Source: Minisyncoccota bacterium (lineage in GTDB: Bacteria; Patescibacteriota; Minisyncoccia; Phycocordibacterales; UBA9973). From it: 64,000 bases of DNA. The position numbers and the translations under genes were made by a program. The notes beneath the pieces were generated by a model. The model made no database searches, was not told the origin of the DNA, and worked only from the letters and a program-made list of their open reading frames with translations. Position 1 is the stretch's first letter; the number at the start of each line of letters is the position of its first letter. The stretch is from assembly GCA_017991395.1 (NCBI GenBank), contig JAGOQQ010000004.1, positions 32,430 through 96,429 on the forward strand, read 5' to 3'. Shown one piece after another: positions 15,973-54,327 of this stretch.

Positions 15973-16002
15973 AATTTACAGCACCAGAAATGGTGCTTTT
16001 TA

Positions 16003-18382: not shown

Positions 18383-18631
18383 ATGTCGAAAAATTCGTCG
18401 TCTGATAATGGAGATGGTACATCATCGTTTATAAGCGGACCAACAAACCACAACAGTAACTCAAGTCAAGGATCTTCAATACAAAGTGATAAATACACTA
18501 TAAACAATGAGGATAAGGGCAAGCCGGACACTCCAAAAGTTCATGAATATTCTGGAAGAAGTCATGATAAAGGAGTTTCTTATGAAGGAGGTCGTGGTGA
18601 AAATTATAACACTAACGATAGTGGAAAATAA
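18383..18631 (+). CDS. Small Ser/Asn/Gly-rich hydrophilic protein
   Basis: Strong Shine-Dalgarno sequence aaggaggataaggaaATG. Low-complexity composition. Confidence 0.4.
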   Translation: MSKNSSSDNGDGTSSFISGPTNHNSNSSQGSSIQSDKYTINNEDKGKPDTPKVHEYSGRSHDKGVSYEGGRGENYNTNDSGK

Positions 18632-18693
18632 ACTTAAAAGGCAACCTTAGGGTGCCTTTTTTATTTTATGCTAAATGATATACTAAATACTAT

Positions 18694-19137: not shown

Positions 19138-19157
19138 AACCCCTTAATTATAAATAA

Positions 19158-19727
19158 TTAAGGGGTTAGCATTCTTTTAACAAAAGTATTTTTATAAAAA
19201 TTATCCTTATATACTGCAAATACTAATAAATCTACATACACATTTTCTCCTGCACTTGTATGATTTTTAAATCTAGCTTCAATGGGCAGGCCAAGTTTCT
19301 CGAAAATCTCCATAGATTCATTATTGTTTTCGTGAACCTCGCAATAAACTTTCCTACATTTAAGTGTTTCGAATAAAAAATTACATCCAAGTATAAACAT
19401 TTCAGCTCCATAGTAATGCGACTTTCTGTATTTTTCAGAAACAAAGGTTGTTGTATATCCAGTTAAATTTTGCTTATTGAATCGATAAATCCAGCTTGTA
19501 CCTATCGCGCTGTTTCTGGTGTTCCGTGCAATAAAATGTACATATCTATCATTTTTATATGCTTTTGAGATTTCGTCATCAAGCTCGTTTAGTGTGCATT
19601 TTTTAGAATAGGACATGCAATTACTTTGAAACGTTTCCGTGTTTCTCCATTCAAGCAGAACAGGGAGATCATCTCTGTTGATTTCAGTCAGGATGAGTCT
19701 TTTTCCATTGATATTCAAATTTTCCAT
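19158..19727 (-). CDS. GNAT family N-acetyltransferase
   Basis: KRLILTEINRDDLPVLLEWRN N-terminal pattern, and GNAT core YGAEMFILGCNFLFETLKCRKVYCEV. Confidence 0.6.
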   Translation of the reverse strand: MENLNINGKRLILTEINRDDLPVLLEWRNTETFQSNCMSYSKKCTLNELDDEISKAYKNDRYVHFIARNTRNSAIGTSWIYRFNKQNLTGYTTTFVSEKYRKSHYYGAEMFILGCNFLFETLKCRKVYCEVHENNNESMEIFEKLGLPIEARFKNHTSAGENVYVDLLVFAVYKDNFYKNTFVKRMLTP

Positions 19728-19912
19728 AGTGTTACGTTTTAATATTTATATGACATAATTGACATAATGTCAAGTAATTATAATCGTATACTTTATTGAT
19801 CCAGTAGTTTTTTAATCGATAAACTTTTCACCCTTTTAGTTTTAATACCTTGTTGGTATACTGAATAGATATAATATTTAATAAAATATTTGGATTAAAT
19901 GCTTTATAAACA

Positions 19913-20263
19913 ATGGAAAGTATTGAAGAAAAAACATATAAGCTAAGTAGCACCGACAAATTTTTGATGGTTGTTTTTATTGTCTTAATTGGAAGTGCTT
20001 TTATCTCTAATTTTTACCATTTCTATATAAACAAGAATTACACATATATTATTGAAACAGAATGTGATTCAGAGTTTGAAACTTGCTATATAGGAGAGGA
20101 TGATGGAGGGCAATTTTTTTATAATGTCAAGACCATTAATGCATACGATTTTTCAGCGTGTAGTGATAATTCTTGCACAAATGAATGTACAAGTGGCTTT
20201 TTAGAATGCATCACCATTCCATGCGGGACAGATCCTGCTGATGTTTGTTCAAAGAATGAATAA
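19913..20263 (+). CDS. Small Cys-rich protein with N-terminal membrane anchor
   Basis: One transmembrane helix (FLMVVFIVLIGSAFI), then 10 Cys in 70 residues (ECDSEFETCY...CSDNSCTNECTSGFLECITIPCG). Confidence 0.4.
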   Translation: MESIEEKTYKLSSTDKFLMVVFIVLIGSAFISNFYHFYINKNYTYIIETECDSEFETCYIGEDDGGQFFYNVKTINAYDFSACSDNSCTNECTSGFLECITIPCGTDPADVCSKNE

Positions 20264-21107
20264 TAAAATGATTAAAGAAAATTTAGATTTTCATACTGAC
20301 ATCGTATATAGTGACGAAATTAAAGAACAGGTTGAATATCTGATGAAAAATCGTGATGCATTTGATTCGTATGTATATACCTCCGTTGATGAAATTCTTA
20401 ATACTAATAAGTCAGTGCAAATCGAATGCAAAAAAAAGGTTGATTATATACTCAATCCTAATATTAAAAGCAAGTTAAATGGTATTTTATTTAGACAAAT
20501 AAATACACCAAATTACGAAACTCGACGATTTCATCAAATTTGTGAGGGGTATGGAATCAAGCCTTTTTTTGTTCAGTATAAAGAGGATAAATTTACTTCA
20601 AATAACTCACTTAAACGAAGTTACGGAAAAATACCCTGTGTGGTTGGTACTGATAAAAATGGGCAGTACATTATAAACTATGTCAATGTAATAGATTTTA
20701 ATCAAAGTAACGGTAAGAAAATTTCTGATATAAAGACATTACAAGGTGAAAATTTAGTTGAACTACACAATAAACTCTTGTTAGATCAAATACCTTCAAT
20801 CCATGAAAGTTCACTTGTGGAGGCCTCACGATGGTTCAAGAACAATGGTGATTGTGCAGGAAAGTATTATCTCAATTTATTGCTAAATTTTCAGACAGAC
20901 ACTTTTCTATTTGATAATTTTTCATTAAATGGAGAAGAGGAAGTATTTACCAGGAACGTTTTTTTGCCAACATTGATTCACATTAGAAATACGTATGGAA
21001 TAAAACCTATCATTATTGCTTTGGAGCCAACGGAGATTGAGAATAATTTGTTTTGGATTGCTCAGACTCCGGAAGTTTATAGTATAATTAAAAAATACAA
21101 TGATTGA
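20241..21107 (+). CDS. Hypothetical protein
   Basis: Overlaps the upstream gene by 23 nt and the downstream kinase by 8 nt, so they form an operon. Confidence 0.4.
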   Translation: MFVQRMNNKMIKENLDFHTDIVYSDEIKEQVEYLMKNRDAFDSYVYTSVDEILNTNKSVQIECKKKVDYILNPNIKSKLNGILFRQINTPNYETRRFHQICEGYGIKPFFVQYKEDKFTSNNSLKRSYGKIPCVVGTDKNGQYIINYVNVIDFNQSNGKKISDIKTLQGENLVELHNKLLLDQIPSIHESSLVEASRWFKNNGDCAGKYYLNLLLNFQTDTFLFDNFSLNGEEEVFTRNVFLPTLIHIRNTYGIKPIIIALEPTEIENNLFWIAQTPEVYSIIKKYND

Positions 21108-22725
21108 AAATACCTGCACTTTATACGGGAGTGCATATCACACAATTGCATATTATTCTCATCTCGTGCCGGCATTTCTTATAGGAACTCTGGCTGTTTT
21201 GATTTTAATGAAAAACAGAAGTTCATTAATAATCACATTTTGTTTATTTACCGCAACATTTATCTTGTGGTTGCTTGGAGATCTTATAGCCTGGACATCG
21301 CCAAATTACAATCTGATTTCTGCCGTGTGGTCATCACTTGATTTACTCAACATACTTTTTTATATTTTTGGTGCATATTTTTTTACGACACTAGTCAGCG
21401 GAAAAGATGTCAGTTTGTGGATAAAGGTTGCTATTGTGCTGGTGACATTGCCTGCTTGGTATATTACAGTTTCAAATATTAGTATTTCTTCATTCTACTT
21501 GCCTCAGTGTGAAGCAATCAATAATACCTTTCTTACAAATTACAAGATATTAATTGAAGCACTTGTAGTCTTGTTCATTGTTATATATGGTTACATTAAA
21601 TCACGAAAACTGGAGCCAGTTAGAAGAAAAAAAGTTGCACTTGTTGCAGCTGGGCTTATTTTATTCTTTGCAACATTTTCTGTAACTGAATTTATAGCTA
21701 GTCAAACAGGTATATATGAAATAAACTTGTATAGCCTTTTCGTCCTACCTGTTTTCCTTGGAATGATTATTTATGCAACAGTTTCTATGAATATATTCCA
21801 ACTCAAAATTATTGGCGAGCAGGCAATGATTTATGTACTTTTGATTATGGTCGGCTCTCAAATGTTCATACTTGAGAATAGGGACAACAGAATACTTTCG
21901 GTTATTACATTCCTGTTATCATTATTCTTTGCATATGTGTTACTTCAGAGTTCACGAAGAGAAGCAATGGCAAAGCGACACATTGAAGAACTCGTATTCC
22001 AACTCGAAGAAGCAAACTCAAAATTGCATGATCTCGACAAGATGAAAACAGAATTCCTCTCACTCGCATCTCATCAGCTTCGTAGTCCACTTACCGCAAT
22101 CAAGGGTTATGCATCGATGCTTCTTGAAGGTTCGTATGGGCAAATCGTCCCAGAACAAAAAGTACCAGTAGATCGAATCTTTCAATCAAGTGTAAACTTG
22201 GCGCAAATCGTGGAAGACTTGCTTGATGTGTCAAAAATGGAACAAGGTGGAATGAAATTCGAAATGGCAGACGTGGACCTAGTGGGAATCTTGAAAGGTC
22301 TGACAAATGAGCTTCAGGTTTCTGCAAAAAGTCGAAATCTTGATCTTGTGTTCGAAACAAATCTTACAGAAGCAATTGTGGAAGTAGACTCAGTAAAAAT
22401 TCGTCAAGTGTTTGCAAACTATGTAGACAATGCACTCAAGTATACAGAAAAAGGAACAGTCAAAATCTCAATTGCAAAATCAGATGACGGAAAAAAGATT
22501 GTGGTTGGAGTCAAGGATTCAGGAATGGGTATTCCTCCAGAGATTATGAAAACACTCTTCAAAAAGTTTGAACGTGGAGAGGGCGGAAAGGTCAACGCGG
22601 GAGGTTCAGGACTTGGGCTATATCTCGCAAAAGAAATCGTCAACGCACACAAAGGACGCACTTGGGCTGAATCAGAAGGACGAGGCAAGGGAAGTACATT
22701 TTTTGTGGAGCTTAGTTTGAAATAA
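21100..22725 (+). CDS. Membrane-bound sensor histidine kinase (orphan; no response regulator nearby)
   Basis: N-terminal multi-transmembrane sensor region. HisKA H-box LSLASHQLRSPLTAIKGY. HATPase_c region with GGSGLGLYLAKEIVNAHKG. Confidence 0.8.
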   Translation: MIENTCTLYGSAYHTIAYYSHLVPAFLIGTLAVLILMKNRSSLIITFCLFTATFILWLLGDLIAWTSPNYNLISAVWSSLDLLNILFYIFGAYFFTTLVSGKDVSLWIKVAIVLVTLPAWYITVSNISISSFYLPQCEAINNTFLTNYKILIEALVVLFIVIYGYIKSRKLEPVRRKKVALVAAGLILFFATFSVTEFIASQTGIYEINLYSLFVLPVFLGMIIYATVSMNIFQLKIIGEQAMIYVLLIMVGSQMFILENRDNRILSVITFLLSLFFAYVLLQSSRREAMAKRHIEELVFQLEEANSKLHDLDKMKTEFLSLASHQLRSPLTAIKGYASMLLEGSYGQIVPEQKVPVDRIFQSSVNLAQIVEDLLDVSKMEQGGMKFEMADVDLVGILKGLTNELQVSAKSRNLDLVFETNLTEAIVEVDSVKIRQVFANYVDNALKYTEKGTVKISIAKSDDGKKIVVGVKDSGMGIPPEIMKTLFKKFERGEGGKVNAGGSGLGLYLAKEIVNAHKGRTWAESEGRGKGSTFFVELSLK

Positions 22726-22737
22726 TATAAAGTAAAT

Positions 22738-22778
22738 TAAAAATCACATCGCGCAAATTTACGCGGTGTGATTTTTAA
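22738..22778 (+). terminator. Terminator after the histidine kinase
   Basis: atcacatcgcgcaaatttacgcggtgtgat hairpin plus T-run. Confidence 0.55.
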
Positions 22779-22838
22779 TAAAAATTGACAAACTGTCAAA
22801 GAGTGATATTATGACGTAAAATCTAAAAAACAAATAAA

Positions 22839-23843
22839 ATGGAGAAAAAACTTTTAATAATTAGCAATTCTGATGAATTGTATTATTACAAACCCGTTAT
22901 TAAGGTTATTAATGAGATTTACAATCACGATGTGTATGTATTTGATTTCAATCAATATCCACGCACTGCGACAATGTCGGTGTCATTAAGTAATAGCAGG
23001 AAAGTGTGTGGGTCACTCAAAACGACACAGTGGAGTAAAGGGCAATCAAGAAAAGGTGTCATGCTTGAAATTAATGATGTATTTAAAGTGTGGCCGATAC
23101 GCATTGGTAATACCAATATAAGCCCTGAACTAGATCCTGTCTCTGCTTTTTTTGCAAAAAAGCAGGCGCACTATGCGATTGAGTCTTTGCTTGCACTTTT
23201 TGAGTGTGAGGTAATAAATCCTCCACGTATCGCTAGATTTGTACAGCACAATAAGTTATATCAATTAGAAATTGCAAAATGGGCAGGATTATCGATTCCC
23301 GATACACTAGTATCATCCAATTATTCTGATGTGTGTGAGTTTGCAGAAAAATGTGGTGGTAGTATGTTAGTAAAATCAATATACACAATGCCGTTCTTAA
23401 ACGAAGACACCAAGGAAATGTTTGGTATATATTCAAGTATTATTACAAAAAGAGAACTTACTTCCTTTTCAGTAAAAGCTTGTCCAAATATCTATCAAGC
23501 ATATATTGAAAAGAAAGTGGAACTACGGATTTCGTACGCCAATGGGAAAATTATGACTTGTTCCATTGATTCGCAATTAAGCGAAAAAACCAAGATTGAT
23601 TGGCGTAATTATGACTTTGGTAATGTTAAACATACTACTTACAAATTACCTAAAGACATTCAGAGAACACTTGTAAAATATATGACACGCATAGGGTTAA
23701 AGTATGGGCAAATAGACATGATACTTACCCCTAATGACGAGTATGTATTTTTGGAAGTAAATCCGTCTGGGCAATGGGGATGGATTCAAGGATTGACTGG
23801 CCTTGAGATTGATCATTCAATTGCTAAGATGCTCATTGAATAG
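22839..23843 (+). CDS. Second ATP-grasp RiPP maturase, MdnB/MdnC-like
   Basis: VELRISYANGKIMTCSIDSQ...DWRNY and LKYGQIDMILTPNDEYVFLEVNPSGQW. N-terminus LLIISNSDELYYYKPVIKVINEI. Paralogous to the 12356 ATP-grasp gene. Confidence 0.8.
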   Translation: MEKKLLIISNSDELYYYKPVIKVINEIYNHDVYVFDFNQYPRTATMSVSLSNSRKVCGSLKTTQWSKGQSRKGVMLEINDVFKVWPIRIGNTNISPELDPVSAFFAKKQAHYAIESLLALFECEVINPPRIARFVQHNKLYQLEIAKWAGLSIPDTLVSSNYSDVCEFAEKCGGSMLVKSIYTMPFLNEDTKEMFGIYSSIITKRELTSFSVKACPNIYQAYIEKKVELRISYANGKIMTCSIDSQLSEKTKIDWRNYDFGNVKHTTYKLPKDIQRTLVKYMTRIGLKYGQIDMILTPNDEYVFLEVNPSGQWGWIQGLTGLEIDHSIAKMLIE

Positions 23844-23860
23844 TAAAAACCCTTTGGAAT

Positions 23861-24700
23861 TTAATTTCCAGGGGGTTTTCTTAATCCTAATTCAATTAAA
23901 TATGGCATTGTCATTTCTTCAAATGTCGGTTCGTATTTAATTAACTTTTCAAATACAGTTACGAACTTTTTTTTAATCGTACTCAACATTTCTTTATTAT
24001 TCTTTTTTAGCTTTTCGTACATGTACAGTCTCGCAAGATAATTTTGATACGCTGAGTACAAACTCATGACTGAACTTTTTTCTGACAATTTATTTTCATA
24101 CGATAGGAGTTTTTTAAACCCGACAGTAGTTTCAAGATTGATTTTCTTTTTGTCCAAGACTAAACTAGCAATATGATTTAAAACTTTACCTGCTTTTTTA
24201 TAAGAAAGTATCAACATTGAAACATCTTTTGCACTCAGTGAATTTTTGCCGTTTGAATAAAAATAATTAGAAATTCTTTTGTATGTTTCAAAGTCATTTG
24301 ACAAAGTATGGTTATATATATCAAATACCGCACTTGCGACATGTCGTGAGGTAGGGAAAACACTCAACATTTTATCTGCAATCGCTTCGTTCGTAGTTTG
24401 TGTAAAAAATTGGTATCCTGAAAGAATCAATGTTTTGTTTTTGGTAGTAGAAATTTGGTCAATCAAACTCAAATACAAGCTCGCCCAATCTTCAGTAAGA
24501 ATTTGTTCATTGTAGTTGGTCTCAAGCTCGAGTAGTAAATTGGTTAACTTTTTATTATGAATGTCGGTATGTGTGGCAATTTCCTCCTCTGATAACTCAA
24601 TAGAATAAAGAATTTTCGAAAAATCTTCAATAATTTTGTAGTATTTTCTTTTGAAGACTAGTAATGAGTTCATACTGGACATTATTGCATAAAAAAACAA
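23861..24700 (-). CDS. Hypothetical protein
   Basis: ORF downstream of the small peptide gene on the minus strand. Convergent on the ATP-grasp, with the bidirectional hairpin 23848-23880 between them. Confidence 0.4.
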   Translation of the reverse strand: MFFYAIMSSMNSLLVFKRKYYKIIEDFSKILYSIELSEEEIATHTDIHNKKLTNLLLELETNYNEQILTEDWASLYLSLIDQISTTKNKTLILSGYQFFTQTTNEAIADKMLSVFPTSRHVASAVFDIYNHTLSNDFETYKRISNYFYSNGKNSLSAKDVSMLILSYKKAGKVLNHIASLVLDKKKINLETTVGFKKLLSYENKLSEKSSVMSLYSAYQNYLARLYMYEKLKKNNKEMLSTIKKKFVTVFEKLIKYEPTFEEMTMPYLIELGLRKPPGN

Positions 24701-24737
24701 AAGTAGGCAATAAGTGAATATTGCCTACTGAATTGAA

Positions 24738-24947
24738 TTAGTCTCCTTCGTCAAACTTATAATCGCTCTTTACTCCTGTTGCGTAATGAGTGTGGCAACC
24801 TGCAGCTGCGCATACTCCGGGAGATGTTTGAGTTGGAATTGGTTTAAGTTGACCAATAAGTAGTGGTTTTCGCTTGTTTCTCAACAAGGATTCATTAAAG
24901 ACAGTAATTTTTGATTCACGTACTGCTTGCTTTGATGATGTTTTCAT
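24738..24947 (-). CDS. Small 69-aa protein, candidate RiPP precursor
   Basis: C-terminal TGVKSDYKFDEGD contains the Thr/Lys/Ser/Asp/Glu set of microviridin cores (TxKxPSDxEE). Consensus promoter immediately upstream. Confidence 0.3.
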   Translation of the reverse strand: MKTSSKQAVRESKITVFNESLLRNKRKPLLIGQLKPIPTQTSPGVCAAAGCHTHYATGVKSDYKFDEGD

Positions 24948-24979
24948 GACTTCGGTTTTTGAAAGATTAAATTAGCTAT

Positions 24980-25007
24980 ATTATAGATTGTAGTTTTCAA
25001 TTGTCAA
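24980..25007 (-). promoter_or_regulatory. Near-consensus sigma70 promoter (TTGACA-N16-TATAAT) for the small ORF
   Basis: Minus-strand reading is ttgacaattgaaaactacaatctataat. Confidence 0.6.
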
Positions 25008-45890: not shown

Positions 45891-46475
45891 ATGAAAAAAG
45901 ATTTTTCAATAAGAAATTTTTGGAGTTTGAACACTGATGAGACAGTGACAATTGGACTTCTTCAAAGAAATACTAATAGGGATATTGAAGTTTTCATGCC
46001 AATGAATTCACAGATGAAGGACATTGATTTGATTATTGCTAATACGAGAAATCAAAAAATGTTAACATTACAAGTTAAAGCAAGTAAAGCATATATACCT
46101 TCACCAGCTCAAAATAAACGTTTTGGTAATGGCTCAGGAACTTTTGTCTCAATCAAAGCAAATTCGCTAGAAAAATCTAATGCTGATTATTTTGTTTTTA
46201 CTTTGTATGGAATGTCTTCATCTGACAAAAACTTCAAAGGTAAAATAAGTGTCCAACCATATATTTTGATCATTTCTACTCGCGAATTGATAAAAAAAAT
46301 TAATTCATATAAAAGAAAATCGAATTCAGGTTCATACATATTTCATTTCTGGATAAACGCGGATAAAAACGAGATTTTCGACTGGCGAGATCTTAAAGAC
46401 AAGAATTCATATGGATATTACAGTGAATTCCTTGATGATTTGGGATTAAAGAATTTGATAAGACATTTATCTTAA
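45891..46475 (+). CDS. Hypothetical protein, possible PD-(D/E)xK nuclease fold
   Basis: DIDLIIANTRNQKMLTLQVK resembles a D...(E/Q)xK core. Weak, inference only. Confidence 0.3.
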   Translation: MKKDFSIRNFWSLNTDETVTIGLLQRNTNRDIEVFMPMNSQMKDIDLIIANTRNQKMLTLQVKASKAYIPSPAQNKRFGNGSGTFVSIKANSLEKSNADYFVFTLYGMSSSDKNFKGKISVQPYILIISTRELIKKINSYKRKSNSGSYIFHFWINADKNEIFDWRDLKDKNSYGYYSEFLDDLGLKNLIRHLS

Positions 46476-46539
46476 CTTCTCTTATATTTGACCACGCAAC
46501 TATCCGTATTTTACGGATAGTTCAATTTGTTCTTAATAT

Positions 46540-46860
46540 ATGACACAATACTACACAGTCATGTCATACTACGCTGGAATCGGTGCCAAACACAACAAAT
46601 ATCCGCAAATACCGGAACTCATTTTGGATTTTCATGGATACACCACGCTCGAATGCAAAGACGAACTCGACGCGCTCATCTCTGAAGGGAAGTTTGGGCA
46701 TATTCGCATAATTGTAGGGAAAGGAAAGAATAGCCAAGAAGGTCCAATCCTGCCGAATTTTGTACGAAATTACCTCACAGACCATCGTATCCGCTTCAAC
46801 CAATCAAAGCTCCAAGACGGCGGCGAAGGGGCATTGGAGGTGTATCTGGAGATTAGTTAA
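46540..46860 (+). CDS. Smr-domain protein
   Basis: LDFHGYTTLEC...GHIRIIVGKGKNSQEGPILPNFVRNYL is the Smr pattern. Confidence 0.7.
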   Translation: MTQYYTVMSYYAGIGAKHNKYPQIPELILDFHGYTTLECKDELDALISEGKFGHIRIIVGKGKNSQEGPILPNFVRNYLTDHRIRFNQSKLQDGGEGALEVYLEIS

Positions 46861-46910
46861 GTATCATAATTATGATTGATTTTTAGACCACTAGATGGGA
46901 TGATAGTAAT

Positions 46911-47561
46911 GTGAGACTTAAAGATACCAATATTAAAGACAGACCACGAGAAAAACTCGAAAAATATGGTACCAGCAAGCTTACTGATGCTGAACTTTTA
47001 GCGATTTTACTACGAACAGGTACCAAAGATTTAAATGTATTAAAATTATCTCAAAAAATTTTACAGAAATTTGGAAATGAAAAGTTTATAGATATAAGCA
47101 TAGATGAATTAAAAACTATTCATGGATTAGGTACAGCTAAGGCTTGTGAGATTATTGCTTGTTTTGAGCTTGGGAAACGCATGTTGAAAGGTAAAAAAAC
47201 ATCAATTATACTTACTCCTAAAGATGTTTGGGAGCGAATGGAAGATATTAGAGGAAGTAAAAAGGAACATTTTGTTGTTTTTTACTTAGATAGTAGGAAT
47301 CAAGAAATAAATAGAGAAATTATATCGGTTGGAACTCTAAATGAGAGCTTAGTTCATCCACGAGAAGTTTTTGAAGGTGCAATAAAGCATAATGCTGCAG
47401 GAATAATATTGGCACACAATCACCCATCTGGTGACACAGAGCCATCGGAAGCAGATATTGAAATTACAAAAAAATTAATCCATGCTGGAAAAATTTTAGA
47501 TATTAAAATTATTAGTCATATTGTTGTAACAAATAATTCTTTTTTACAACTAGAATTTTAA
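46911..47561 (+). CDS. radC: RadC-like JAB/MPN-domain protein
   Basis: HhH N-terminus LTDAELLAILLRTGTKD. JAMM motif HNHPSGDTEPSEAD. GTG start. Confidence 0.85.
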   Translation: MRLKDTNIKDRPREKLEKYGTSKLTDAELLAILLRTGTKDLNVLKLSQKILQKFGNEKFIDISIDELKTIHGLGTAKACEIIACFELGKRMLKGKKTSIILTPKDVWERMEDIRGSKKEHFVVFYLDSRNQEINREIISVGTLNESLVHPREVFEGAIKHNAAGIILAHNHPSGDTEPSEADIEITKKLIHAGKILDIKIISHIVVTNNSFLQLEF

Positions 47562-47574
47562 CAAAAATTATATT

Positions 47575-48960
47575 ATGAATAAAGAAACCCGTATAAAAAA
47601 TATAGCTGAAATTATTAAGAGAGATAAGGAGCATGGCAGACAGGATATCCCATGGAAAGATAAGCTGGAGCCGATGTCAGTTTATTTAATTCCTTTAGAG
47701 TACCTAGTTTACAATAAATACAATGGGCGTATTTTAAGTAGAACTAAGTCATTAGAAATGCAGGGTTACGAAATTGATGCTGCTTCTAAGGAAGGCAAGG
47801 TTTTAATAGAAAAGCTTCTCATGGATTCAAATCCATCTAGAAATAGACAGACACTTGAAAGCATTAATAAAATTGGGCAGGAAAAAGTTGGTATAATTAC
47901 TCGAGATGGAATCATAATTGATGGTAATAGACGCGCGATGTTATTAAATAAATCAGGTAAATATGATTATTTTAAAACCGTTGTTTTAGATGTTACTTTA
48001 GAAGAAAATCCATTAGAAATTGAGAAACTTGAAACTACTTACCAAATGGGAGAAGATGAAAAATTAGGTTACAAAGCAATAGAGAAATATTTAAAATCAA
48101 AACTACTACACAAAAGAAACATATCTGTTGATAAAATTGCCGATTGGATGGGAGAGGATAATTCTAAAATAAAAGAGTACTTGGACGTTATGAATGTTAT
48201 GGACGAGTACCTAGAATATCTTGGATGCAAGGGAATATATACTCAATTAGATGAGAGAGAGGATCAATTCATAAGTCTTACAAGATGGCTTGATACTTTT
48301 TATGGAGAGAGTAGCTCGAAAGGATTCGATGGATATACAGATAGTGATGTTGATGACCTTAAAATTATATCATTTGATTACATAAGAGCTATCTATGAAG
48401 GTAAGGAATTTCGTAATATTGGGTATGGTTTAAGAGATAATCATTTTTTTGGGGATAGAAAAATTTGGGAAAGTTTTAGAGACTTTCATTTTAAAAAAGT
48501 TGATTTAATAAAAGACAAAGAATCGAAAATTGATTTTAAATCTGATAATCTTGAAGCTTATCTAAAAGACAGAGATTCTAGGTACTATCAAAATACAAAA
48601 AATAATGAAGGCGAAAGTTTTTTAGAAGAAAATATTAGAATTCATAAACAGCAACTTCAGAACAAAAAATCAGCCAACGAACCTTCTAAGCTTGTAAGTA
48701 CGGCAAGTGATGCGTTAAATGCAATCAATCAAAAGAATTCTTCATTTTCAAGTAGTGATGTTTCTAACGGTCTTGAGAGGATAAGCGAAAAGGTTATAAA
48801 CATGATTGCGGTAAATTCTCCCGACAAGATTATATTTCAAGTCGTTAAAATGCTAAAATCAATTCCTTTAGGTAAGGATAGTACTCTTAAAAAGCATATG
48901 TTAGTAAAAATAAAAGAGATTGAAAAGATTGTTGATCTTATTAAAAAAGATATTGAGTAA
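47575..48960 (+). CDS. ParB/Sulfiredoxin-fold (ParB-like nuclease/NTPase) domain protein
   Basis: NPSRNRQTLESINKIGQEKVGIITRDGIIIDGNRRAMLL matches the ParB N-terminal domain pattern, and a long C-terminal extension is present. Confidence 0.6.
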   Translation: MNKETRIKNIAEIIKRDKEHGRQDIPWKDKLEPMSVYLIPLEYLVYNKYNGRILSRTKSLEMQGYEIDAASKEGKVLIEKLLMDSNPSRNRQTLESINKIGQEKVGIITRDGIIIDGNRRAMLLNKSGKYDYFKTVVLDVTLEENPLEIEKLETTYQMGEDEKLGYKAIEKYLKSKLLHKRNISVDKIADWMGEDNSKIKEYLDVMNVMDEYLEYLGCKGIYTQLDEREDQFISLTRWLDTFYGESSSKGFDGYTDSDVDDLKIISFDYIRAIYEGKEFRNIGYGLRDNHFFGDRKIWESFRDFHFKKVDLIKDKESKIDFKSDNLEAYLKDRDSRYYQNTKNNEGESFLEENIRIHKQQLQNKKSANEPSKLVSTASDALNAINQKNSSFSSSDVSNGLERISEKVINMIAVNSPDKIIFQVVKMLKSIPLGKDSTLKKHMLVKIKEIEKIVDLIKKDIE

Positions 48961-48965
48961 AAGGA

Positions 48966-50939
48966 ATGAATAATATTATATATATCGATATAGATAACTC
49001 AACATCTTGTTTCAAATTAACTGGTGATATAATAAATATTACCATAAATACAAGATTAGTTTTTTCACTTAAGAGATTCGGTTATAGTTCCATTGATGAT
49101 TGCATATTAATACCTTTTAACCAGAAAACAAAAATTAAAATATTACAAGACTTAATTTCTTTGCTCGAAAAATTTAATTTTAATGCAAAGCTAACTAACG
49201 AAACAAGTAGTGAAGTATTTAGTTTTGAGCAGGAAAAAAAGTTATTTACTATTTTTTCGAAAAATGCTAAAAATATTCGCAATAATAAATTTGAAGATAA
49301 TCCCGAACTTGTAGAGAATTTTAATAAATTTCAAAGTGTTTTGAAGGAAAAATTGGTACGTCCGCTTTATCCACTGCAATTACTGTCAGCTTTTCATATG
49401 GCTTTTTCACAAAATTCATGTAATTTTGCTGTACCTGGTGCTGGAAAAACTTCAATTGTATATGGAGCGTATGCGTATCTAAATAGCCTGCCTGTAGACG
49501 ACCCAAAGCACGTCAATAAAATACTAGTAATTGGACCTTTGTCATCTTTTTCACCATGGGAAAAAGAGTTCAAAGAATGTTTTGGCAATAAACCATCATC
49601 CCAGAGATTATCTGGTGATAATACAATTTTAAGGTCTCATAAGGAGCAGCATCTTTTTTCTGGTAACCCCGCGGAACTGACACTAATAAATCACGGGGGT
49701 GTTGATAATTTACAATATGAAATTATTTCTTTCTTAAAGAAAAATAAAACTATGGTTGTGGTTGATGAAGCACATAGAATAAAAAATCCTGAAGGTGTTT
49801 GGGGGAAGAGTGTTGTCGAAATATCAAAAGAAGCGCAGGCTAGAGTAGTTTTAACTGGAACACCAGTTCCCAATGGTTATGAAGATTTATTTAATTTATT
49901 TCAATTTCTATATCCATATAAATATAAGGATATATTAAAATTACATTTCTTAAATCTTGTAGATATGACTATGAACTCATCTACTGACAGTGATAGAGTT
50001 AAGGAATTTATAGAAAACATCTCACCATATTTTATTCGAATTAAGAAAAAAGATTTAAAGTTACCTCCAGTTAATGAAATATCAATTAGTGTTACTATGG
50101 ATTTATTACAAAGAGAAATTTATGATTTCGTAGAAAACAAATATATCAAACAGTTTAAAAATAATAGTTCTGCTGCTGTTAAAGATTTATTAAACAAGGC
50201 TAAATTAATACGTTTAAGACAGGCTTCTACGAATCCATCTCTTCTTCTTAAGCCAATCTCAGAAAATCTAGATCCAGATGATTATGGGCAAGGAATTGAT
50301 TTTAATAAAGATATGCCAGACGAGTTTCAAGATGATTCACATATTATTTCTAAAATAATGAAGTACGCAAATAATGAAACCCCTATGAAATTTATTGCGA
50401 TTAAAAAATTGCTAGAAGAAAAAATTTTTGTTGGTAACGGTAAAGTTATTATTTGGACTATTTTCATTCAAAATGCCAAAGAGCTTCAAAATTTTCTTTT
50501 GAAGAGTAATATAAAATCTAAATTATTAATAGGCGAAATCGTACAAAGCGACCGTGAGGTTATTATCGATATGTTTAATAATCCTCTGAATACAGAATTT
50601 CAGGTTATTATAGCTAATCCATTTTCTGTATCTGAATCAATCTCCCTTCATAAAGGTTGTCATAATGCTATTTACATGGAACGCGATTATAATTGTTCTA
50701 ATTTTTTACAATCTAAAGATAGAATACACCGATATGGTTTATCTCAGAATCAAGAAACTAATTATTATTATTTAATATCTTCTGATTCTATTGATGAAAT
50801 TATTAACGAAAAACTAGATTTAAAAGTTAAAAGAATGGAAAAAATAATTGATGATGATATCCCACTTTTTTCGCGTATAAACGATTCTGATGAGACTGAC
50901 CTAATTAAAGCTTTGTTAGAAAGTTATTCTAAAAATTAA
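48966..50939 (+). CDS. SNF2-like SF2 helicase
   Basis: Walker A FAVPGAGKTS, motif II VVVDEAHRIKN, motif III LTGTPVPN. C-terminal helicase lobe present. Confidence 0.8.
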   Translation: MNNIIYIDIDNSTSCFKLTGDIINITINTRLVFSLKRFGYSSIDDCILIPFNQKTKIKILQDLISLLEKFNFNAKLTNETSSEVFSFEQEKKLFTIFSKNAKNIRNNKFEDNPELVENFNKFQSVLKEKLVRPLYPLQLLSAFHMAFSQNSCNFAVPGAGKTSIVYGAYAYLNSLPVDDPKHVNKILVIGPLSSFSPWEKEFKECFGNKPSSQRLSGDNTILRSHKEQHLFSGNPAELTLINHGGVDNLQYEIISFLKKNKTMVVVDEAHRIKNPEGVWGKSVVEISKEAQARVVLTGTPVPNGYEDLFNLFQFLYPYKYKDILKLHFLNLVDMTMNSSTDSDRVKEFIENISPYFIRIKKKDLKLPPVNEISISVTMDLLQREIYDFVENKYIKQFKNNSSAAVKDLLNKAKLIRLRQASTNPSLLLKPISENLDPDDYGQGIDFNKDMPDEFQDDSHIISKIMKYANNETPMKFIAIKKLLEEKIFVGNGKVIIWTIFIQNAKELQNFLLKSNIKSKLLIGEIVQSDREVIIDMFNNPLNTEFQVIIANPFSVSESISLHKGCHNAIYMERDYNCSNFLQSKDRIHRYGLSQNQETNYYYLISSDSIDEIINEKLDLKVKRMEKIIDDDIPLFSRINDSDETDLIKALLESYSKN

Positions 50940-50942
50940 TTC

Positions 50943-52337
50943 ATGAAAGCATACCAAACAAAAATAGAAGTTTTAGAACAATCAAGAATTATACTAGATA
51001 AATCTTTGCGTGAAGTAATACCATCTAATGAAATAGAAGAAATTGAGAGAAAAATTTACGAATATAAAAACAAAAGAAAAGGATATTTAGGAGAATTAAT
51101 TGAATGGTATGTGTTTGATAAAAAACCAGACGGCTTAAGTCAGGCTGATTTTAATGTTGCTGGAGTAGAGTTAAAAGCCACACCTCTTAAAAAACACGCA
51201 AAAAGCATTTATTCGTCTAAAGAAAGATTGGTTTTTTCAATGATTAATTATGATGAGATTGTAAACGAGGAATGGAATTCAAGCTCATTTCTTAAAAAGA
51301 ATAAAGTCGTACTTCTGATGTTTTATCTTTGGATACAAAGTCAAAGTATTATAGATTATGAATTTAAGTTTGTTCATTTGCTTGATTTGCTCAACGATTT
51401 GTCTGAGGAAGATGTTTTTCAGATTCAGAAAGATTGGGAATATATAGTAGCAAAAATTAGAAGAGGAGAAGCGCATTTACTTTCAGAAGGAGATACCTAT
51501 TACCTTGGCGCTTGTACTAAGGCCGCGAATAGTCAGGTGGTACGAGATCAACCAATGAGTCGTAGACCAGCAAAACCAAGAGCTTTTTCTTTTAAACAGC
51601 AGTATATAAATTATTTAATTCAGACAAAACTTCTTGGAAAGAAAGCGAGTACAGATTCGATTTTTAATAAACAAAGAAGACTAGAAACAATAGAAGATGT
51701 GGTTAAGGAAAAGTTTGCGCCTTTTATCGGAAAAACAGATAGAGAGATACTTTTTAAGTTAAACTCGGATTTAGGGAAGAAATCAAAGAGTTACAAAAGA
51801 CTTATAGTTAATCGTATTCTTGGTGTTAAATCAAGTCACATTGAAGAATTAGAAAAAGCAAACATAACACTTAAAGTTATTACATTAGAGTACACAGGAA
51901 ATTTAAAAGAATCTATTTCATTTCCAGCTTTTGACTATAAAGATTTGTTAAATGATTTATGGTATGACGAAGAAGAAGAGATAATGACAGATTTTCATTT
52001 GCAACTTGAAACAAAAAAGTTTTTATTCGCGGTCTTCCAAAAACAAAAAGATAATGATGATATTGTTTTAAAGAAAACAATGTTTTGGAATTTCCCCATG
52101 AAAGATATAGGTGAAGCTGAAAAAGTTTGGCAAAAAACTGTTGATTGTATAAAAGAAGGGAATTATGATGAGTTGCCCAAAATTAAGGATAGCTTTGTTG
52201 CTCATGTTCGCCCACACGGAAAAGACTCAACAGATACAATAGAGACCCCTCAAAAAACCCAGGAAATGAAACGCTGTTTTTGGATTAACGCTAAATATAT
52301 ACAGCATGCCATAGAAAACGATAAAGATCAAGATTGA
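50943..52337 (+). CDS. Sau3AI/MutH-family restriction endonuclease (probable GATC specificity)
   Basis: KGYLGELIEWYVF and DFNVAGVELKATP align to the MutH catalytic segments KGWIGVLLEIWLG and DFAALGVELKTIP. Two-domain size as in Sau3AI. Confidence 0.7.
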   Translation: MKAYQTKIEVLEQSRIILDKSLREVIPSNEIEEIERKIYEYKNKRKGYLGELIEWYVFDKKPDGLSQADFNVAGVELKATPLKKHAKSIYSSKERLVFSMINYDEIVNEEWNSSSFLKKNKVVLLMFYLWIQSQSIIDYEFKFVHLLDLLNDLSEEDVFQIQKDWEYIVAKIRRGEAHLLSEGDTYYLGACTKAANSQVVRDQPMSRRPAKPRAFSFKQQYINYLIQTKLLGKKASTDSIFNKQRRLETIEDVVKEKFAPFIGKTDREILFKLNSDLGKKSKSYKRLIVNRILGVKSSHIEELEKANITLKVITLEYTGNLKESISFPAFDYKDLLNDLWYDEEEEIMTDFHLQLETKKFLFAVFQKQKDNDDIVLKKTMFWNFPMKDIGEAEKVWQKTVDCIKEGNYDELPKIKDSFVAHVRPHGKDSTDTIETPQKTQEMKRCFWINAKYIQHAIENDKDQD

Positions 52338-52368
52338 TCAATTACATTGAATCTGATAGAATCTTAAT

Positions 52369-53640
52369 ATGAAAAAGATTAAGGTCGTTGAACTATTTGC
52401 AGGAGTTGGTGGTTTTCGTATTGGACTCGATAGGGCTAGTAAAAAGGACATGCAATTTGAAACTGTATGGAGTAGTCAATGGGAGCCTGGGGCAATTACT
52501 CAACATGCTTCCGAAATCTACAAAGCACGATTTGGAACTGAGAATCATTCCTGTGAAGACATCCAAGAAGTTATTGAGAAGAATTTTAAAGAAATTCCAA
52601 ATCATGATTTACTAGTTGGTGGTTTTCCATGTCAGGATTATTCAGTTGCAAGGACTGCAAATCAGGCAAAGGGTATTTTCGGAAAAAAGGGTGTATTGTG
52701 GTGGTCAATTCACAAAATTTTAGAAAAGAAGGGAAAAGATTCTCCTAATTTTTTAATGCTTGAAAATGTTGATCGATTATTAAAGTCTCCATCTGCACAA
52801 AGAGGACGGGATTTTGCTGTTATGCTTGCATCACTTTCGGATTTGGGATATGCGGTTGAATGGAGAGTTGTAAATGCTGCTGATTATGGATTTCCTCAAC
52901 GAAGGAGACGGGTATTTATATTGGGCTACAAGAAAGGAAGCAAAATTTATAATGAAATTAAAATTGAAAACGACAAAAAAAATTGGATTTTCAAGAAGGG
53001 GGTATTAGTAAAAGCTTTTCCTCTTACTAAAGAAATAGGCATACTTAAAGACTTTGACCTAAAAGGAGAGCTCCAAGAAATATCAGTAGAATTTTCTAAA
53101 TCAGGACCTTCAAAAAGCCCCTTTGAGGTTTCAGGAATAATGTTCGATAGACATGTATATACAGTGAAAACAACCCCCGAACACCATGACAAAAAAGTTG
53201 TACTAAATGATTTAATCATATCCAGCGAAAAAGAAATACCACGAGAATATTATATAGATCCCGGAGATTTAAAACGTTGGCACTATCTTAAAGGAGGGAA
53301 GAAAGAGGGGCGTAAATCAAAGGATGGTTTTGAGTATGAATATGCAGAAGGACCAATGGTGTTTCCAGATCCTCTAGATAAGCCCTCACGTACAATTGTT
53401 ACAGGAGAAGGTGGAACTTCTCCCTCGCGTTTTAAGCATGTCATAAAAACAAAATCTGGGAAACTTCGAAGGTTAACACCCGTTGAACTTGAACGCTTAA
53501 ATATGTTTCCTGATAATCACACAAAGTTTATGCATAATGGTAAAATTACACCAGACAACAAAAGAGCTTTCATAATGGGTAACGCTTTAGTGGTTGGTGT
53601 GATTGAGCGTATAGGCAAGGCATTATTAAAGCAAATCTAA
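52369..53640 (+). CDS. DNA (cytosine-5)-methyltransferase
   Basis: Motif I ELFAGVGGF, motif IV GGFPCQDYS, motif VI LMLENV, motif VIII FPQRRRRVFILG. Confidence 0.9.
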   Translation: MKKIKVVELFAGVGGFRIGLDRASKKDMQFETVWSSQWEPGAITQHASEIYKARFGTENHSCEDIQEVIEKNFKEIPNHDLLVGGFPCQDYSVARTANQAKGIFGKKGVLWWSIHKILEKKGKDSPNFLMLENVDRLLKSPSAQRGRDFAVMLASLSDLGYAVEWRVVNAADYGFPQRRRRVFILGYKKGSKIYNEIKIENDKKNWIFKKGVLVKAFPLTKEIGILKDFDLKGELQEISVEFSKSGPSKSPFEVSGIMFDRHVYTVKTTPEHHDKKVVLNDLIISSEKEIPREYYIDPGDLKRWHYLKGGKKEGRKSKDGFEYEYAEGPMVFPDPLDKPSRTIVTGEGGTSPSRFKHVIKTKSGKLRRLTPVELERLNMFPDNHTKFMHNGKITPDNKRAFIMGNALVVGVIERIGKALLKQI

Positions 53641-53692: not shown

Positions 53693-53739
53693 ATTTCCAT
53701 GTATAATAAAACCATATCAGTTAATATTTTTATATGGAT
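53693..53739 (+). promoter_or_regulatory. 45-bp direct repeat, copy 1; extended -10 promoter (TGTATAAT) plus 5' UTR
   Basis: atttccatgtataataaaaccatatcagttaatatttttatATGga is identical to 54283-54327 apart from one extra T. Confidence 0.55.
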
Positions 53740-54237
53740 TCAAAAGAATATTACTATAAAAGATTTCGAGAACAGTTTGACGAATGGGTAAAAAAGACTC
53801 AAGCACACGAGCATCAAGGAGAGGGTATTTATATTTCTATTCAGAATTTAAAGCCCGAATATTTATCTCATATTTCAAAAGAAGATTACATGTTATTTCA
53901 TTGCGCATTAGCATGTACAGTGTTAATTGATCAAGTTATGTATACTCATTTCAAGCAAGATTATTTGAAATTCCAACAAATGACACTATATCCCAAAATT
54001 GAATATGGCATCACTAATATAAATGTTAATCCATGGGTAATTACACATAGCGGAATAGGTTTAACTACACTAGAGCATTTTTTAGAGTTTTTTGTTTCTG
54101 ATTTGAAAGAGTTTTACAATAAGTGCAAATTTGAGGTTGCAAATTGGGACAACTTAAAAGATTCCATACTAAATGATAAAGATTGTATTAGTGGATCTCA
54201 TGGAGAAATCTTGAAGACTATTTTATCAAAATACTAA
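53734..54237 (+). CDS. Hypothetical protein
   Basis: ORF flanked by the two direct-repeat promoter copies. Confidence 0.4.
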   Translation: MDSKEYYYKRFREQFDEWVKKTQAHEHQGEGIYISIQNLKPEYLSHISKEDYMLFHCALACTVLIDQVMYTHFKQDYLKFQQMTLYPKIEYGITNINVNPWVITHSGIGLTTLEHFLEFFVSDLKEFYNKCKFEVANWDNLKDSILNDKDCISGSHGEILKTILSKY

Positions 54238-54282
54238 AGCTAAAAATAAAATAAAATGGGAATCCTCATCTCGTATCTTAAT

Positions 54283-54327
54283 TTCCATGTATAATAAAAC
54301 CATATCAGTTAATATTTTTTTATGGAA
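54283..54327 (+). promoter_or_regulatory. 45-bp direct repeat, copy 2 (promoter plus 5' UTR of the DoxX gene)
   Basis: atttccatgtataataaaaccatatcagttaatatttttttATGga. Confidence 0.55.

What the first reader, a model, noticed from the sequence alone, without database searches (positions are those of the whole stretch)
45891..53640. Low-GC defence-type island: PD-(D/E)xK-like, Smr, RadC/JAB, ParB-like, SNF2 helicase, Sau3AI/MutH-family REase, C5-MTase in one tightly packed plus-strand array
From RadC onward the genes are separated by 13, 5, 3 and 31 bp, so they form one operon. The module pairs a classical type II R-M (MutH-like nuclease and Dcm-like methyltransferase) with a ParB/Srx-fold protein and an SNF2-like helicase, and adds a JAB-domain RadC and an Smr nuclease-domain protein. 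This combination does not match the canonical BREX, DISARM, Dnd or Ssp gene sets as I know them. It may be a composite or novel restriction-linked defence system. Codon and GC usage differ strongly from the neighbouring murG and M23 genes, suggesting horizontal acquisition.
Basis: partly seen in the sequence, partly recalled or inferred. Interest (0 to 1): 0.75.

Follow-up and report, generated by a model that had tools for sequence, protein, structure and literature searches.

The report
ParB–SNF2 defence module with Sau3AI-type restriction
A horizontally acquired gene block in a Candidatus Pacebacteria (CPR) genome joins a GATC-type restriction–modification pair to a ParB-like protein and an SNF2 motor; this protein pair recurs across bacterial phyla next to DNA methylases with interchangeable killing domains, and resembles the core of AbiR, a lactococcal phage-resistance system whose mechanism is still unknown.

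Summary
The 194-aa PD-(D/E)xK gene and Smr are host backbone. The mobile block is RadC–ParB-like–SNF2–Sau3AI-family REase–C5-MTase (window 46,911–53,640).

The informative part is the ParB-like/SNF2 pair. SNF2 follows the ParB-like gene in 79 of 80 loci from many phyla. The usual cassette is [Vsr]–C5-MTase(~560 aa)–ParB-like–SNF2–fourth protein. That fourth protein has a shared N-terminal domain and a swappable NOV_C nuclease or TIR C-terminus.

In the window's clade the fourth gene is lost, and a Sau3AI-type R-M supplies both the MTase and the only nuclease. The pair remains under strong purifying selection (dN/dS 0.06–0.08). Sau3AI-type R-M joined the pair at four separate tree positions.

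Distant homologues of the pair sit on Lactobacillales plasmids in AbiR-type operons, or next to Type III R-M, or with dcm plus a MutH-like gene. Published AbiR is ParB-like plus SNF2 plus a sigma-like protein. It sits beside the Sau3AI-family LlaKR2I R-M and is toxic without that methylase.

Verdict: a new, minimal variant of an AbiR-like, methylation-gated defence module. The link to AbiR rests on architecture, not on direct alignment to pKR223. The mechanism is inferred.

The parts
46911..47561 (+). RadC (UPF0758 N-domain plus JAB domain, with HNHPSGDTEPSEAD intact). It is a lineage-specific passenger of the mobile block, not a core component.
   Evidence: Pfam and NCBIfam hits. GC 0.306 and GC3 0.166. 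It is co-transferred with the pair in L010 at 84% aa identity, and the shared DNA starts at 46,936. It is absent next to the pair in the other loci. dN/dS is 0.06. JAB motif confirmed.
47575..48960 (+). ParB/Srx-fold protein (461 aa): ParB N-domain plus HTH plus a helical C-terminal region. It is the signature protein of the module (AbiRb-like).
48966..50939 (+). SNF2-family ATPase (657 aa) with a family-specific N-domain of about 140 aa that has no nuclease signature (AbiRc-like, but without a PLD domain).
   Evidence: PF00176, PF00271. GAGKT158, DEAH267 and QSKDRIHR582 present. It lies directly downstream of ParB-like in 79 of 80 loci. 33% identity over 542 aa, E 7e-83, to the E. faecalis helicase. 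The N-domain is shared with Firmicutes homologues. No invariant acidic residue in residues 1-130.
50943..52337 (+). Full-length Sau3AI-family type II restriction endonuclease (MutH-like catalytic domain plus MutH-like C-terminal domain). It sits in the slot where other cassettes carry the NOV_C or TIR effector gene.
   Evidence: NF040973, 414 bits. PADLOC REase_II, 268 bits. PDB 4pxg, E 2.7e-55, with the D69...E76-L-K78 motif intact. It starts 3 bp after the SNF2 stop.
52369..53640 (+). C5 cytosine DNA methyltransferase (423 aa), the partner of the Sau3AI-family enzyme and the presumed self-protection component for the whole block.
   Evidence: PF00145, 218 bits. PADLOC MTase_II PDLC03329, 540 bits. 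Motifs FAGVGG, PCQ, ENV and QRRRR present. 55-62% identical MTases accompany the pair in L039, L042 and L074. 38.5% identity to the dcm of the L. plantarum ParB-SNF2 operon.

Best explanation
Window 46,911-53,640 is a horizontally acquired defence block. An AbiR-like ParB/SNF2 module has been grafted onto a Sau3AI-type (GATC, 5-methylcytosine) restriction-modification pair.

Proposed working, with all steps inferred unless marked otherwise:
1. The C5-MTase methylates host GATC sites, which protects host DNA from the Sau3AI-family nuclease and also from the ParB/SNF2 module.
2. The ParB-like protein is an NTP-switch DNA-binding protein with ParB N-domain motifs and an HTH. It engages incoming or replicating DNA that lacks the mark.
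3. It recruits or licenses the SNF2 ATPase, which translocates along that DNA.
4. The motor delivers or activates an effector. In most relatives this is a fourth protein whose C-terminus is a NOV_C nuclease or a TIR domain, and in one Firmicutes relative it is a PLD nuclease fused to the motor. In this window the only candidate is the Sau3AI/MutH-family nuclease encoded 3 bp downstream in the effector slot.

What is shown here: gene content, fold, motif integrity, near-obligate linkage of the pair, linkage to methyltransferases, effector swapping, co-transfer, and purifying selection.

What is taken from the literature: AbiR blocks phage DNA replication and is toxic without the LlaKR2I methylase.
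For: Linkage: SNF2 lies directly after ParB-like in 79 of 80 loci from more than 10 phyla. A C5-MTase is adjacent in nearly all, and Vsr is often present.

Fourth gene: it overlaps the SNF2 stop by 17-29 nt. It has a shared N-domain (hhalign probability 99.9%, E 8.5e-34) with either NOV_C (61 loci) or TIR (7 loci; PADLOC ThsB 153 bits) at the C-terminus.

Window clade: the window has no fourth-gene homologue. Even so, ParB-like and SNF2 have dN/dS of 0.06-0.08 among the three genomes that lack it, and all ATPase, ParB, nuclease and MTase motifs are intact.

Recurrence: Sau3AI-type MTase plus MutH-family nuclease joined the pair at four separate tree positions, each with a different gene order. 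An L. plantarum plasmid has a dcm (38.5% identical to the window MTase), ParB-like, PLD+SNF2 and a MutH-family protein. P0255 is an MTase-ParB-like fusion.

AbiR link: the E. faecalis plasmid operon is sigma-like, ParB-like, SNF2, which is the AbiRa/b/c architecture, and it is homologous to the window pair.

Literature: AbiRb is ParB-like with top PDB hit 5K5D, AbiRc is a SauUSI-like nuclease domain plus SNF2, and AbiR needs M.LlaKR2I and is toxic without it (PMC13064643). LlaKR2I is a Sau3AI/MutH-family GATC enzyme (PMC4471560).

Site statistics: GATC is depleted, with observed/expected 0.68 in the window and 9 against 22.8 expected in the block.
Against: - No pKR223 AbiR sequence could be aligned. 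The AbiR link rests on architecture and on the review's fold descriptions.
- The window lacks AbiRa, a PLD domain and the NOV_C/TIR protein, so it has no dedicated effector. A Sau3AI-type R-M works on its own, so physical adjacency could be modular co-residence.
- The E. faecalis AbiR-type locus shows no MTase within 16 kb.
- dS is near saturation (1.0-1.3), so dN/dS values are approximate.
- The NJ tree has no support values.
- GATC specificity and any methylation sensing by the ParB-like protein are untested.
- Promoter and terminator scans do not define the operon.
Confidence: 0.6

Rival explanations
1. There are two independent systems that merely sit side by side. One is an ordinary, self-sufficient Sau3AI-type type II R-M. 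The other is a ParB/SNF2 remnant that lost its own MTase and effector, and is either decaying or working independently of the R-M.
For: Sau3AI-family R-M pairs are autonomous (established knowledge). The window lacks the fourth gene and the ~560-aa MTase of the canonical cassette. Defence genes cluster in islands, and this site seems to be an insertion hotspot.
Against: The pair has dN/dS 0.06-0.08 and intact motifs in three genomes lacking the effector. Gaps are 3-5 bp. There are four independent unions with Sau3AI-type R-M, and in each the Sau3AI-type MTase replaces the cassette's own MTase instead of adding to it. There is a parallel arrangement in L. plantarum. Published work reports that AbiR depends on M.LlaKR2I (PMC13064643).
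Confidence: 0.2
2. It is a mobile-element maintenance or anti-restriction module. ParB would act in partition or as an injected DNase. SNF2 plus methylase would act like the DarB-type methylase-helicase dyad, protecting the element's own DNA.
For: ParB, SNF2 and methylase domains co-occur in polyvalent anti-restriction proteins of phages and conjugative elements (PMC5512222). Some loci lie beside integrases or replication genes, and Firmicutes homologues are on plasmids.
Against: There is no ParA partner. The genes are separate, not polyvalent. The MTases are C5, not the adenine type of DarB. Dedicated TIR or NOV_C effectors and Vsr are linked to the pair. Most loci are chromosomal islands among housekeeping genes. 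AbiR is an experimentally shown host defence (PMC13064643).
Confidence: 0.07
3. It is a DNA-repair operon, for example a methyl-directed MutH-like nicking pathway with RadC, Smr and an SNF2 remodeller.
For: It contains a MutH-family fold, an Smr (MutS2-type) domain, RadC and an SNF2 ATPase.
Against: Smr is backbone and not linked to the pair. The nuclease is a full-length Sau3AI equivalog. The family occurs in only about 137 of 185,579 species genomes and moves horizontally. Relatives carry TIR effectors. GATC is avoided.
Confidence: 0.03

Closest known systems
AbiR abortive-infection system of Lactococcus lactis plasmid pKR223, with its neighbouring LlaKR2I R-M
   Same: Both have a ParB-like protein (same top PDB hit, 5K5D) plus an SNF2-family ATPase encoded next to a Sau3AI/MutH-family GATC R-M with a methylase. 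In AbiR the methylase is required to prevent toxicity (PMC13064643, PMC4471560). An AbiR-architecture operon in E. faecalis is homologous to the window's pair.
   Different: The window has no sigma-like AbiRa. Its SNF2 protein has no SauUSI/PLD-like nuclease domain. Identity to the Firmicutes branch is only 29-33%. The host is a CPR bacterium. Homology to the actual pKR223 proteins could not be tested.
Unnamed four-gene cassette [Vsr]-C5-MTase(~560 aa)-ParB-like-SNF2-(adaptor plus NOV_C or TIR), found here in Bacteroidota, CPR, Acidobacteriota, Proteobacteria and other phyla
   Same: The ParB-like and SNF2 proteins are orthologous (45-87% identity), in the same order and with the same tight spacing.
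   Different: The window's clade has lost the fourth (effector) gene and the long MTase. It has a Sau3AI-family REase plus a 423-aa MTase downstream instead. I found no description of this cassette in the papers searched, and PADLOC v2 does not model the ParB-like protein.
Sau3AI / LlaKR2I / DpnIII type II R-M systems
   Same: The REase is a full-length Sau3AI-family equivalog with an intact D...ExK motif, paired with a C5-MTase.
   Different: Classical members are two-gene systems. Here the REase follows an SNF2 ATPase by 3 bp within a five-gene block.
NTP-dependent restriction systems that pair a motor with a nuclease and a methylase (Type I and III R-M, DISARM, BREX-related systems, SauUSI, CglI/NgoAVII)
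   Same: The general logic is the same: a methyltransferase for self-marking plus an SF2 motor plus a nuclease. The SNF2 protein gives weak matches to DrmD, ZorD and DpdE models.
   Different: There is no DrmA/DrmB, PglZ/BrxC, HsdS or Res-type fusion. The defining extra component is a ParB/Srx-fold protein. The effector is swappable and includes TIR.
ParB/KorB/PadC CTP-dependent DNA clamps
   Same: It has the same N-domain fold followed by an HTH, and conserved arginine motifs at the nucleotide site: N..NGR and DGNRR, compared with GERR in ParB.
   Different: There is no ParA partner and no parS context. The residue equivalent to the ParB catalytic Glu is Asn. A long helical C-terminal region is specific to this family. 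Nucleotide binding is untested.

Membership tests
AbiR (L. lactis pKR223) | ParB-like AbiRb component | tested here: met
AbiR (L. lactis pKR223) | AbiRc: SNF2-family ATPase with an N-terminal SauUSI-like (7CLG) endonuclease domain | tested here: inconclusive
   The SNF2 ATPase is present and 33% identical to the E. faecalis AbiRc-like helicase. No PLD or nuclease signature is present, and there is no invariant acidic residue in residues 1-130. The N-domain is shared with the short Firmicutes helicases. A PLD domain is seen only in the 862-aa L. plantarum version.
AbiR (L. lactis pKR223) | AbiRa: sigma-70-like protein of about 820 aa | tested here: not met
   tblastn with the E. faecalis sigma-like protein finds nothing in the window or in the 80 loci.
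AbiR (L. lactis pKR223) | Encoded beside a Sau3AI-family R-M whose methylase is required for viability | tested here: inconclusive
   Adjacency is met: the Sau3AI-family REase and C5-MTase lie directly downstream. Dependence on the methylase cannot be tested in silico.
AbiR (L. lactis pKR223) | Sequence homology to the pKR223 AbiRb and AbiRc proteins themselves | not testable with these tools
   The primary papers and the sequence are not held. No AbiR-named protein appears among the listed hits.
AbiR (L. lactis pKR223) | Confers phage resistance by blocking phage DNA replication | not testable with these tools
   This needs an experiment.
C5-MTase-ParB-like-SNF2-NOV_C/TIR cassette (unnamed) | Orthologous ParB-like and SNF2 genes, adjacent and in that order | tested here: met
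   45-87% identity; the same order in 79 of 80 loci.
C5-MTase-ParB-like-SNF2-NOV_C/TIR cassette (unnamed) | Fourth gene with the shared N-domain and a NOV_C or TIR C-terminus, overlapping the SNF2 stop | tested here: not met
   No homologue anywhere in the window. A Sau3AI-family REase occupies that position.
C5-MTase-ParB-like-SNF2-NOV_C/TIR cassette (unnamed) | Upstream ~560-aa C5-MTase with a C-terminal extension | tested here: not met
   The window MTase is 423 aa, lies downstream, and is only about 25-28% identical to the long MTase.
Sau3AI-family type II R-M | Full-length Sau3AI-family REase with the catalytic D...ExK motif | tested here: met
   NF040973, 414 bits against cutoff 300. 4pxg, E 2.7e-55. 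D69...E76-L-K78 present.
Sau3AI-family type II R-M | Cognate C5-MTase with motifs I, IV, VI and VIII | tested here: met
   PF00145, 218 bits. FAGVGG, PCQ, ENV and QRRRR present.
Sau3AI-family type II R-M | GATC recognition, blocked by GAT(5mC) | not testable with these tools
   Inferred from family membership (PMC4471560). GATC depletion, at observed/expected 0.68, is consistent with it.
DISARM | DrmA helicase plus DrmB (DUF1998) core | tested here: not met
   Only partial DrmD and DrmMII matches (44 and 123 bits). No DrmA or DrmB.
BREX / Dnd / Ssp | PglZ and BrxC; DndACDE; or SspABCD | tested here: not met
   No PADLOC or Pfam hits to any of these in the 10 ORFs scanned.
ParABS partition | ParA ATPase partner and a canonical ParB (PF02195) protein | tested here: not met
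   No Pfam ParBc hit. No ParA next to the pair in the contexts inspected. The constant neighbour is SNF2.

The most novel reading that the evidence does not exclude
The ParB-like/SNF2 pair is a universal, methylation-gated 'licensing' engine. The ParB-like protein would be an NTP-switch clamp that loads on DNA lacking the partner methyltransferase's mark, and it hands the SNF2 motor any of several plug-in effectors: NOV_C, TIR, PLD, or MutH/Sau3AI.

In the window's minimal form it would activate a MutH-family nuclease in the way MutL activates MutH. That would be mismatch-repair activation logic reused for immunity. It would also explain the 25-year-old AbiR phenotype, and it would be the first ParB-type nucleotide switch shown to work in immunity alongside a chromatin-remodeller-type motor.
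Probability: 0.25. Interest if true: 0.8.

Novelty: new variant of a known kind. Interest (0 to 1): 0.62.

Why it matters
AbiR has been known as a phage-resistance system since 2000, yet a 2026 review still says it is unclear how its parts work (PMC13064643).

This locus and its relatives show that the ParB-like/SNF2 core is not confined to Lactococcus. It is a cross-phylum module of about 1,500 sequence clusters, and it is almost always tied to a DNA methyltransferase. Its effectors are interchangeable: NOV_C nuclease, TIR, fused PLD, or MutH/Sau3AI.

That gives a concrete, testable model, in which methylation is the self-mark, ParB-like is the sensor or switch, SNF2 is the motor, and the effector plugs in. 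The window offers a minimal four-gene version for reconstitution. The family is also missed by PADLOC v2, because it has no model for the ParB-like protein. Defence-system censuses that use PADLOC v2, including censuses of CPR bacteria, therefore likely overlook it.

Tried and rejected
- BREX, DISARM, Dnd, Ssp and Zorya were rejected because only generic SNF2 and MTase matches appear.
- The Dnd-reappraisal paper, the BREX-related paper and the polyvalent-protein paper do not describe this cassette.
- The idea that the 194-aa PD-(D/E)xK protein replaces the lost NOV_C effector was rejected. It is backbone in L093 and sits in unrelated contexts elsewhere. It shows no profile similarity to the fourth-gene N-domain or to the MTase extension.
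- The idea that the SNF2 N-domain is a nuclease was rejected for this family, because it has no invariant acidic residue or histidine.
- A relationship between the Firmicutes accessory genes (sigma-like protein, 201-aa ORF) and the fourth-gene adaptor or the MTase extension was tested; no match was significant.
- The AFDB fold library was unavailable.
- The primary AbiR papers are not held, and no hit is named AbiR.
- There is no tRNA in the window, and no flanking repeats define the block's ends.
- Promoter-like sites are not above shuffled expectation.

Full report
**Source and observation.** The window comes from a Candidatus Pacebacteria (CPR) genome: the 461-aa protein is 100% identical to NCBI KBC42_00545. 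Profile searches confirm Smr, RadC (NCBIfam equivalog), SNF2, a full-length Sau3AI-family endonuclease (NF040973, 414 bits against a cutoff of 300) and a C5-MTase.

**Extent of the island.** The closest relative, L010 (Nomurabacteria), shares an ~80%-identical DNA block from window 46,936, inside RadC, to 53,619, the end of the MTase. Its flanks are unrelated to the window's. A second relative, L009/L007, shares DNA only across ParB-like plus SNF2 (47,574-50,939). It carries a different arrangement next to the pair: a reverse-strand MTase and a 254-aa MutH-like gene, with no RadC.

A related CPR genome, L093, has the backbone order FtsW-MurG-M23-...-194aa-Smr followed by a different gene. From this I conclude three things. 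The 194-aa nuclease and Smr are backbone genes. The mobile block is RadC through the MTase. The conserved unit within that block is the ParB-like/SNF2 pair.

**The pair elsewhere.** The ParB-like protein has more than 1,800 homologues at 55-70% identity across phyla, none with a Pfam domain. A profile search finds 1,535 50%-identity clusters among 1.84 billion representatives. It occurs in about 137 of 185,579 species genomes.

In 79 of 80 retrieved loci, SNF2 lies directly downstream of the ParB-like gene. The usual cassette is [Vsr]-C5-MTase(~560 aa)-ParB-like-SNF2-fourth gene. The fourth gene overlaps the SNF2 stop by 17-29 nt. It carries either a NOV_C (PF13020) domain (61 loci) or a TIR domain (7 loci; PADLOC ThsB 153 bits) behind a shared ~195-aa N-domain (hhalign probability 99.9%, E 8.5e-34).

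Swapping a nuclease for a TIR domain on a common adaptor is typical of immune systems. PADLOC v2 has no model that matches the ParB-like protein.

**The window's variant.** The window has no fourth-gene homologue anywhere. A Sau3AI-family REase starts 3 bp after SNF2, and the MTase is a 423-aa enzyme only distantly related to the cassette's long MTase. Loci L039, L042 and L074 carry NOV_C together with a Sau3AI-type MTase (55-62% identical to the window's) and a MutH-family nuclease, each in a different gene order.

On an NJ tree of ParB-like plus SNF2, these loci and the window clade fall at four separate positions among canonical cassettes. The tree has no support values. This pattern suggests that Sau3AI-type R-M replaced the cassette's own MTase repeatedly. 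Only the window clade went on to lose the fourth gene.

In that clade, ParB-like and SNF2 remain under strong purifying selection: dN/dS is 0.06-0.08 in three pairwise comparisons, although dS of about 1.0-1.3 is near saturation. All motifs are intact:
- SNF2: GAGKT, DEAH, QSKDRIHR.
- ParB-like: N..NGR and DGNRR.
- REase: D69...E76-L-K78.
- MTase: FAGVGG, PCQ, ENV, QRRRR.

GATC is the second most depleted palindromic 4-mer in the window (observed/expected 0.68). Inside the block there are 9 sites against 22.8 expected.

**Link to AbiR.** Distant homologues of the ParB-like protein (28-29% identity) are found on Lactobacillales plasmids. Their contexts are:
- E. faecalis: sigma-factor-like (864 aa), ParB-like (405 aa), SNF2 helicase (620 aa).
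- L. lactis and L. reuteri: Type III mod, res, ParB-like, SNF2.
- L. plantarum: dcm (38.5% identical to the window MTase), ParB-like, PLD+SNF2 (862 aa), a MutH-family protein (247 aa, matching the C-terminal half of the window's REase at E 1e-17), and vsr.

The window's proteins match the E. faecalis pair at E 7e-22 (ParB-like) and E 7e-83 (SNF2). The SNF2 N-domain is also shared.

A 2026 review describes lactococcal AbiR as AbiRa (sigma-70-like), AbiRb (ParB-like, best PDB match 5K5D) and AbiRc (N-domain like PDB 7CLG, plus an SNF2 ATPase). It states that AbiR is encoded around the LlaKR2I R-M, requires the LlaKR2I methylase, is toxic without it, and impairs phage DNA replication, and that its mechanism is unclear (PMC13064643). 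7CLG is SauUSI. LlaKR2I belongs with Sau3AI and MutH, and all three cleave GATC (PMC4471560).

The window therefore reproduces the AbiR/LlaKR2I design in a CPR genome, but without AbiRa and without a nuclease domain on the motor. I could not align the pKR223 proteins themselves. The link is by architecture, fold and homology to AbiR-architecture operons.

**Mechanism.** The following is shown here: near-obligate ParB-like/SNF2 linkage, linkage to methyltransferases (C5 or Type III), swappable effectors, co-transfer, and selection. One MTase-ParB-like fusion protein, P0255, also exists, although it may be a frameshift artefact. From the literature comes the methylase-dependent toxicity of AbiR.

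The rest is inferred. The MTase would mark self DNA. The ParB-like protein, with its ParB-type nucleotide-site arginines and HTH, would be an NTP-switch DNA binder that engages unmarked DNA. SNF2 would translocate along that DNA. The effector would then cut DNA (NOV_C, PLD, MutH/Sau3AI) or deplete NAD+ (TIR).

In the window the Sau3AI-family enzyme sits in the effector slot. In L009 the equivalent is a 254-aa MutH-like protein, a size consistent with a single MutH-like domain. MutH is a latent nickase that needs an ATPase activator, so a similar dependence on the ParB-like/SNF2 pair is an attractive but untested possibility.

**Rivals.**
- Mere adjacency of an autonomous R-M and a decaying remnant. 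This is disfavoured by the selection evidence, the recurrence of the union, and the fact that the cassette's MTase is replaced, not supplemented.
- A mobile-element anti-restriction or partition role (PMC5512222). This is disfavoured by the TIR and NOV_C effectors, Vsr, the absence of ParA, and chromosomal island contexts.
- A repair operon. This is disfavoured by the patchy, mobile distribution.

**Verdict.** This is a new variant of a known kind. It is an AbiR-like ParB/SNF2 module in minimal form, coupled to a Sau3AI-type R-M. It belongs to a widespread cassette family that I did not find described in the searched literature. Caveats: the census covers the best 80 of 137 loci, found with two peptide patterns; specificity, methylation sensing and defence activity are all untested.

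Noticed in passing
window 53693-53738 and 54281-54326: A 46-nt direct repeat (98% identical) brackets the 167-aa ORF (53734-54237, GC 0.30, no family hit). Each copy ends at an ATG: the start of the 167-aa ORF and the start of the DoxX gene. It looks as if the DoxX 5' region was duplicated when this small gene was inserted.
   Followed up: no
window 45891-46475; L093, L094, L095: The 194-aa PD-(D/E)xK protein (closest fold: homing endonuclease I-Ssp6803I) belongs to a family of only 12 proteins, including one from a Pacearchaeota archaeon. It sits in unrelated contexts: between grpE and dnaK in one contig, and next to an MmeI-type R-M and PemK in another. Homologues also lie within a few kb of the ParB-SNF2 block in L009 and L010. 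It may be a small selfish nuclease gene.
   Followed up: partly
L093 7914-8276 (equivalent to window ~46,900): In a related CPR genome, the gene after Smr is not RadC. Its N-terminus resembles an N6-methyltransferase ('ELVWNGK'), which I judged from the motif only. This suggests the site downstream of Smr is a hotspot for R-M or defence insertions.
   Followed up: partly
L042 7325-11648 vs L043 1-4324: The ParB-like/SNF2 region of a Petrimonas (Bacteroidota) MAG and a Sulfurimonas (Campylobacterota) MAG is 99.2% identical over 4.3 kb. This is either very recent cross-phylum transfer or MAG mis-binning.
   Followed up: partly
P0255 (749 aa, metagenomic): The C-terminal end of a C5-MTase (PF00145 positions 269-323) is fused in frame to a full ParB-like protein. 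It is either a genuine MTase-ParB-like fusion or a frameshift at the usual 4-nt gene overlap.
   Followed up: partly
L003/L017 1125-4900; locus (no DNA): Some canonical cassettes lie next to integrase fragments and rolling-circle or phage CRI-type replication genes. The cassette may travel on small integrative elements.
   Followed up: no
L089 2933-11184; L091 4002-12016: On L. reuteri and L. lactis plasmids, the ParB-like/SNF2 pair directly follows a Type III mod-res pair with overlapping or abutting genes. The pair therefore partners with adenine-methylating Type III systems as well.
   Followed up: partly
window, whole: GGCC is the most depleted palindromic 4-mer (observed/expected 0.63). 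This hints at past or present HaeIII-type restriction pressure in this genome.
   Followed up: no
window ~12,000-25,000: A second long low-GC stretch (0.29-0.35) lies upstream of the studied region. I did not examine its gene content.
   Followed up: no
window 46498-46522: A strong terminator-like hairpin (11-bp stem) follows the 194-aa ORF, separating it transcriptionally from Smr and the island.
   Followed up: no
L007 8534-9919: In the 87%-identical relative, the gene upstream of ParB-like is an ExoI/RNase T-family exonuclease (461 aa) instead of RadC. I could not tell whether it is an accessory of the pair or a backbone gene.
   Followed up: no
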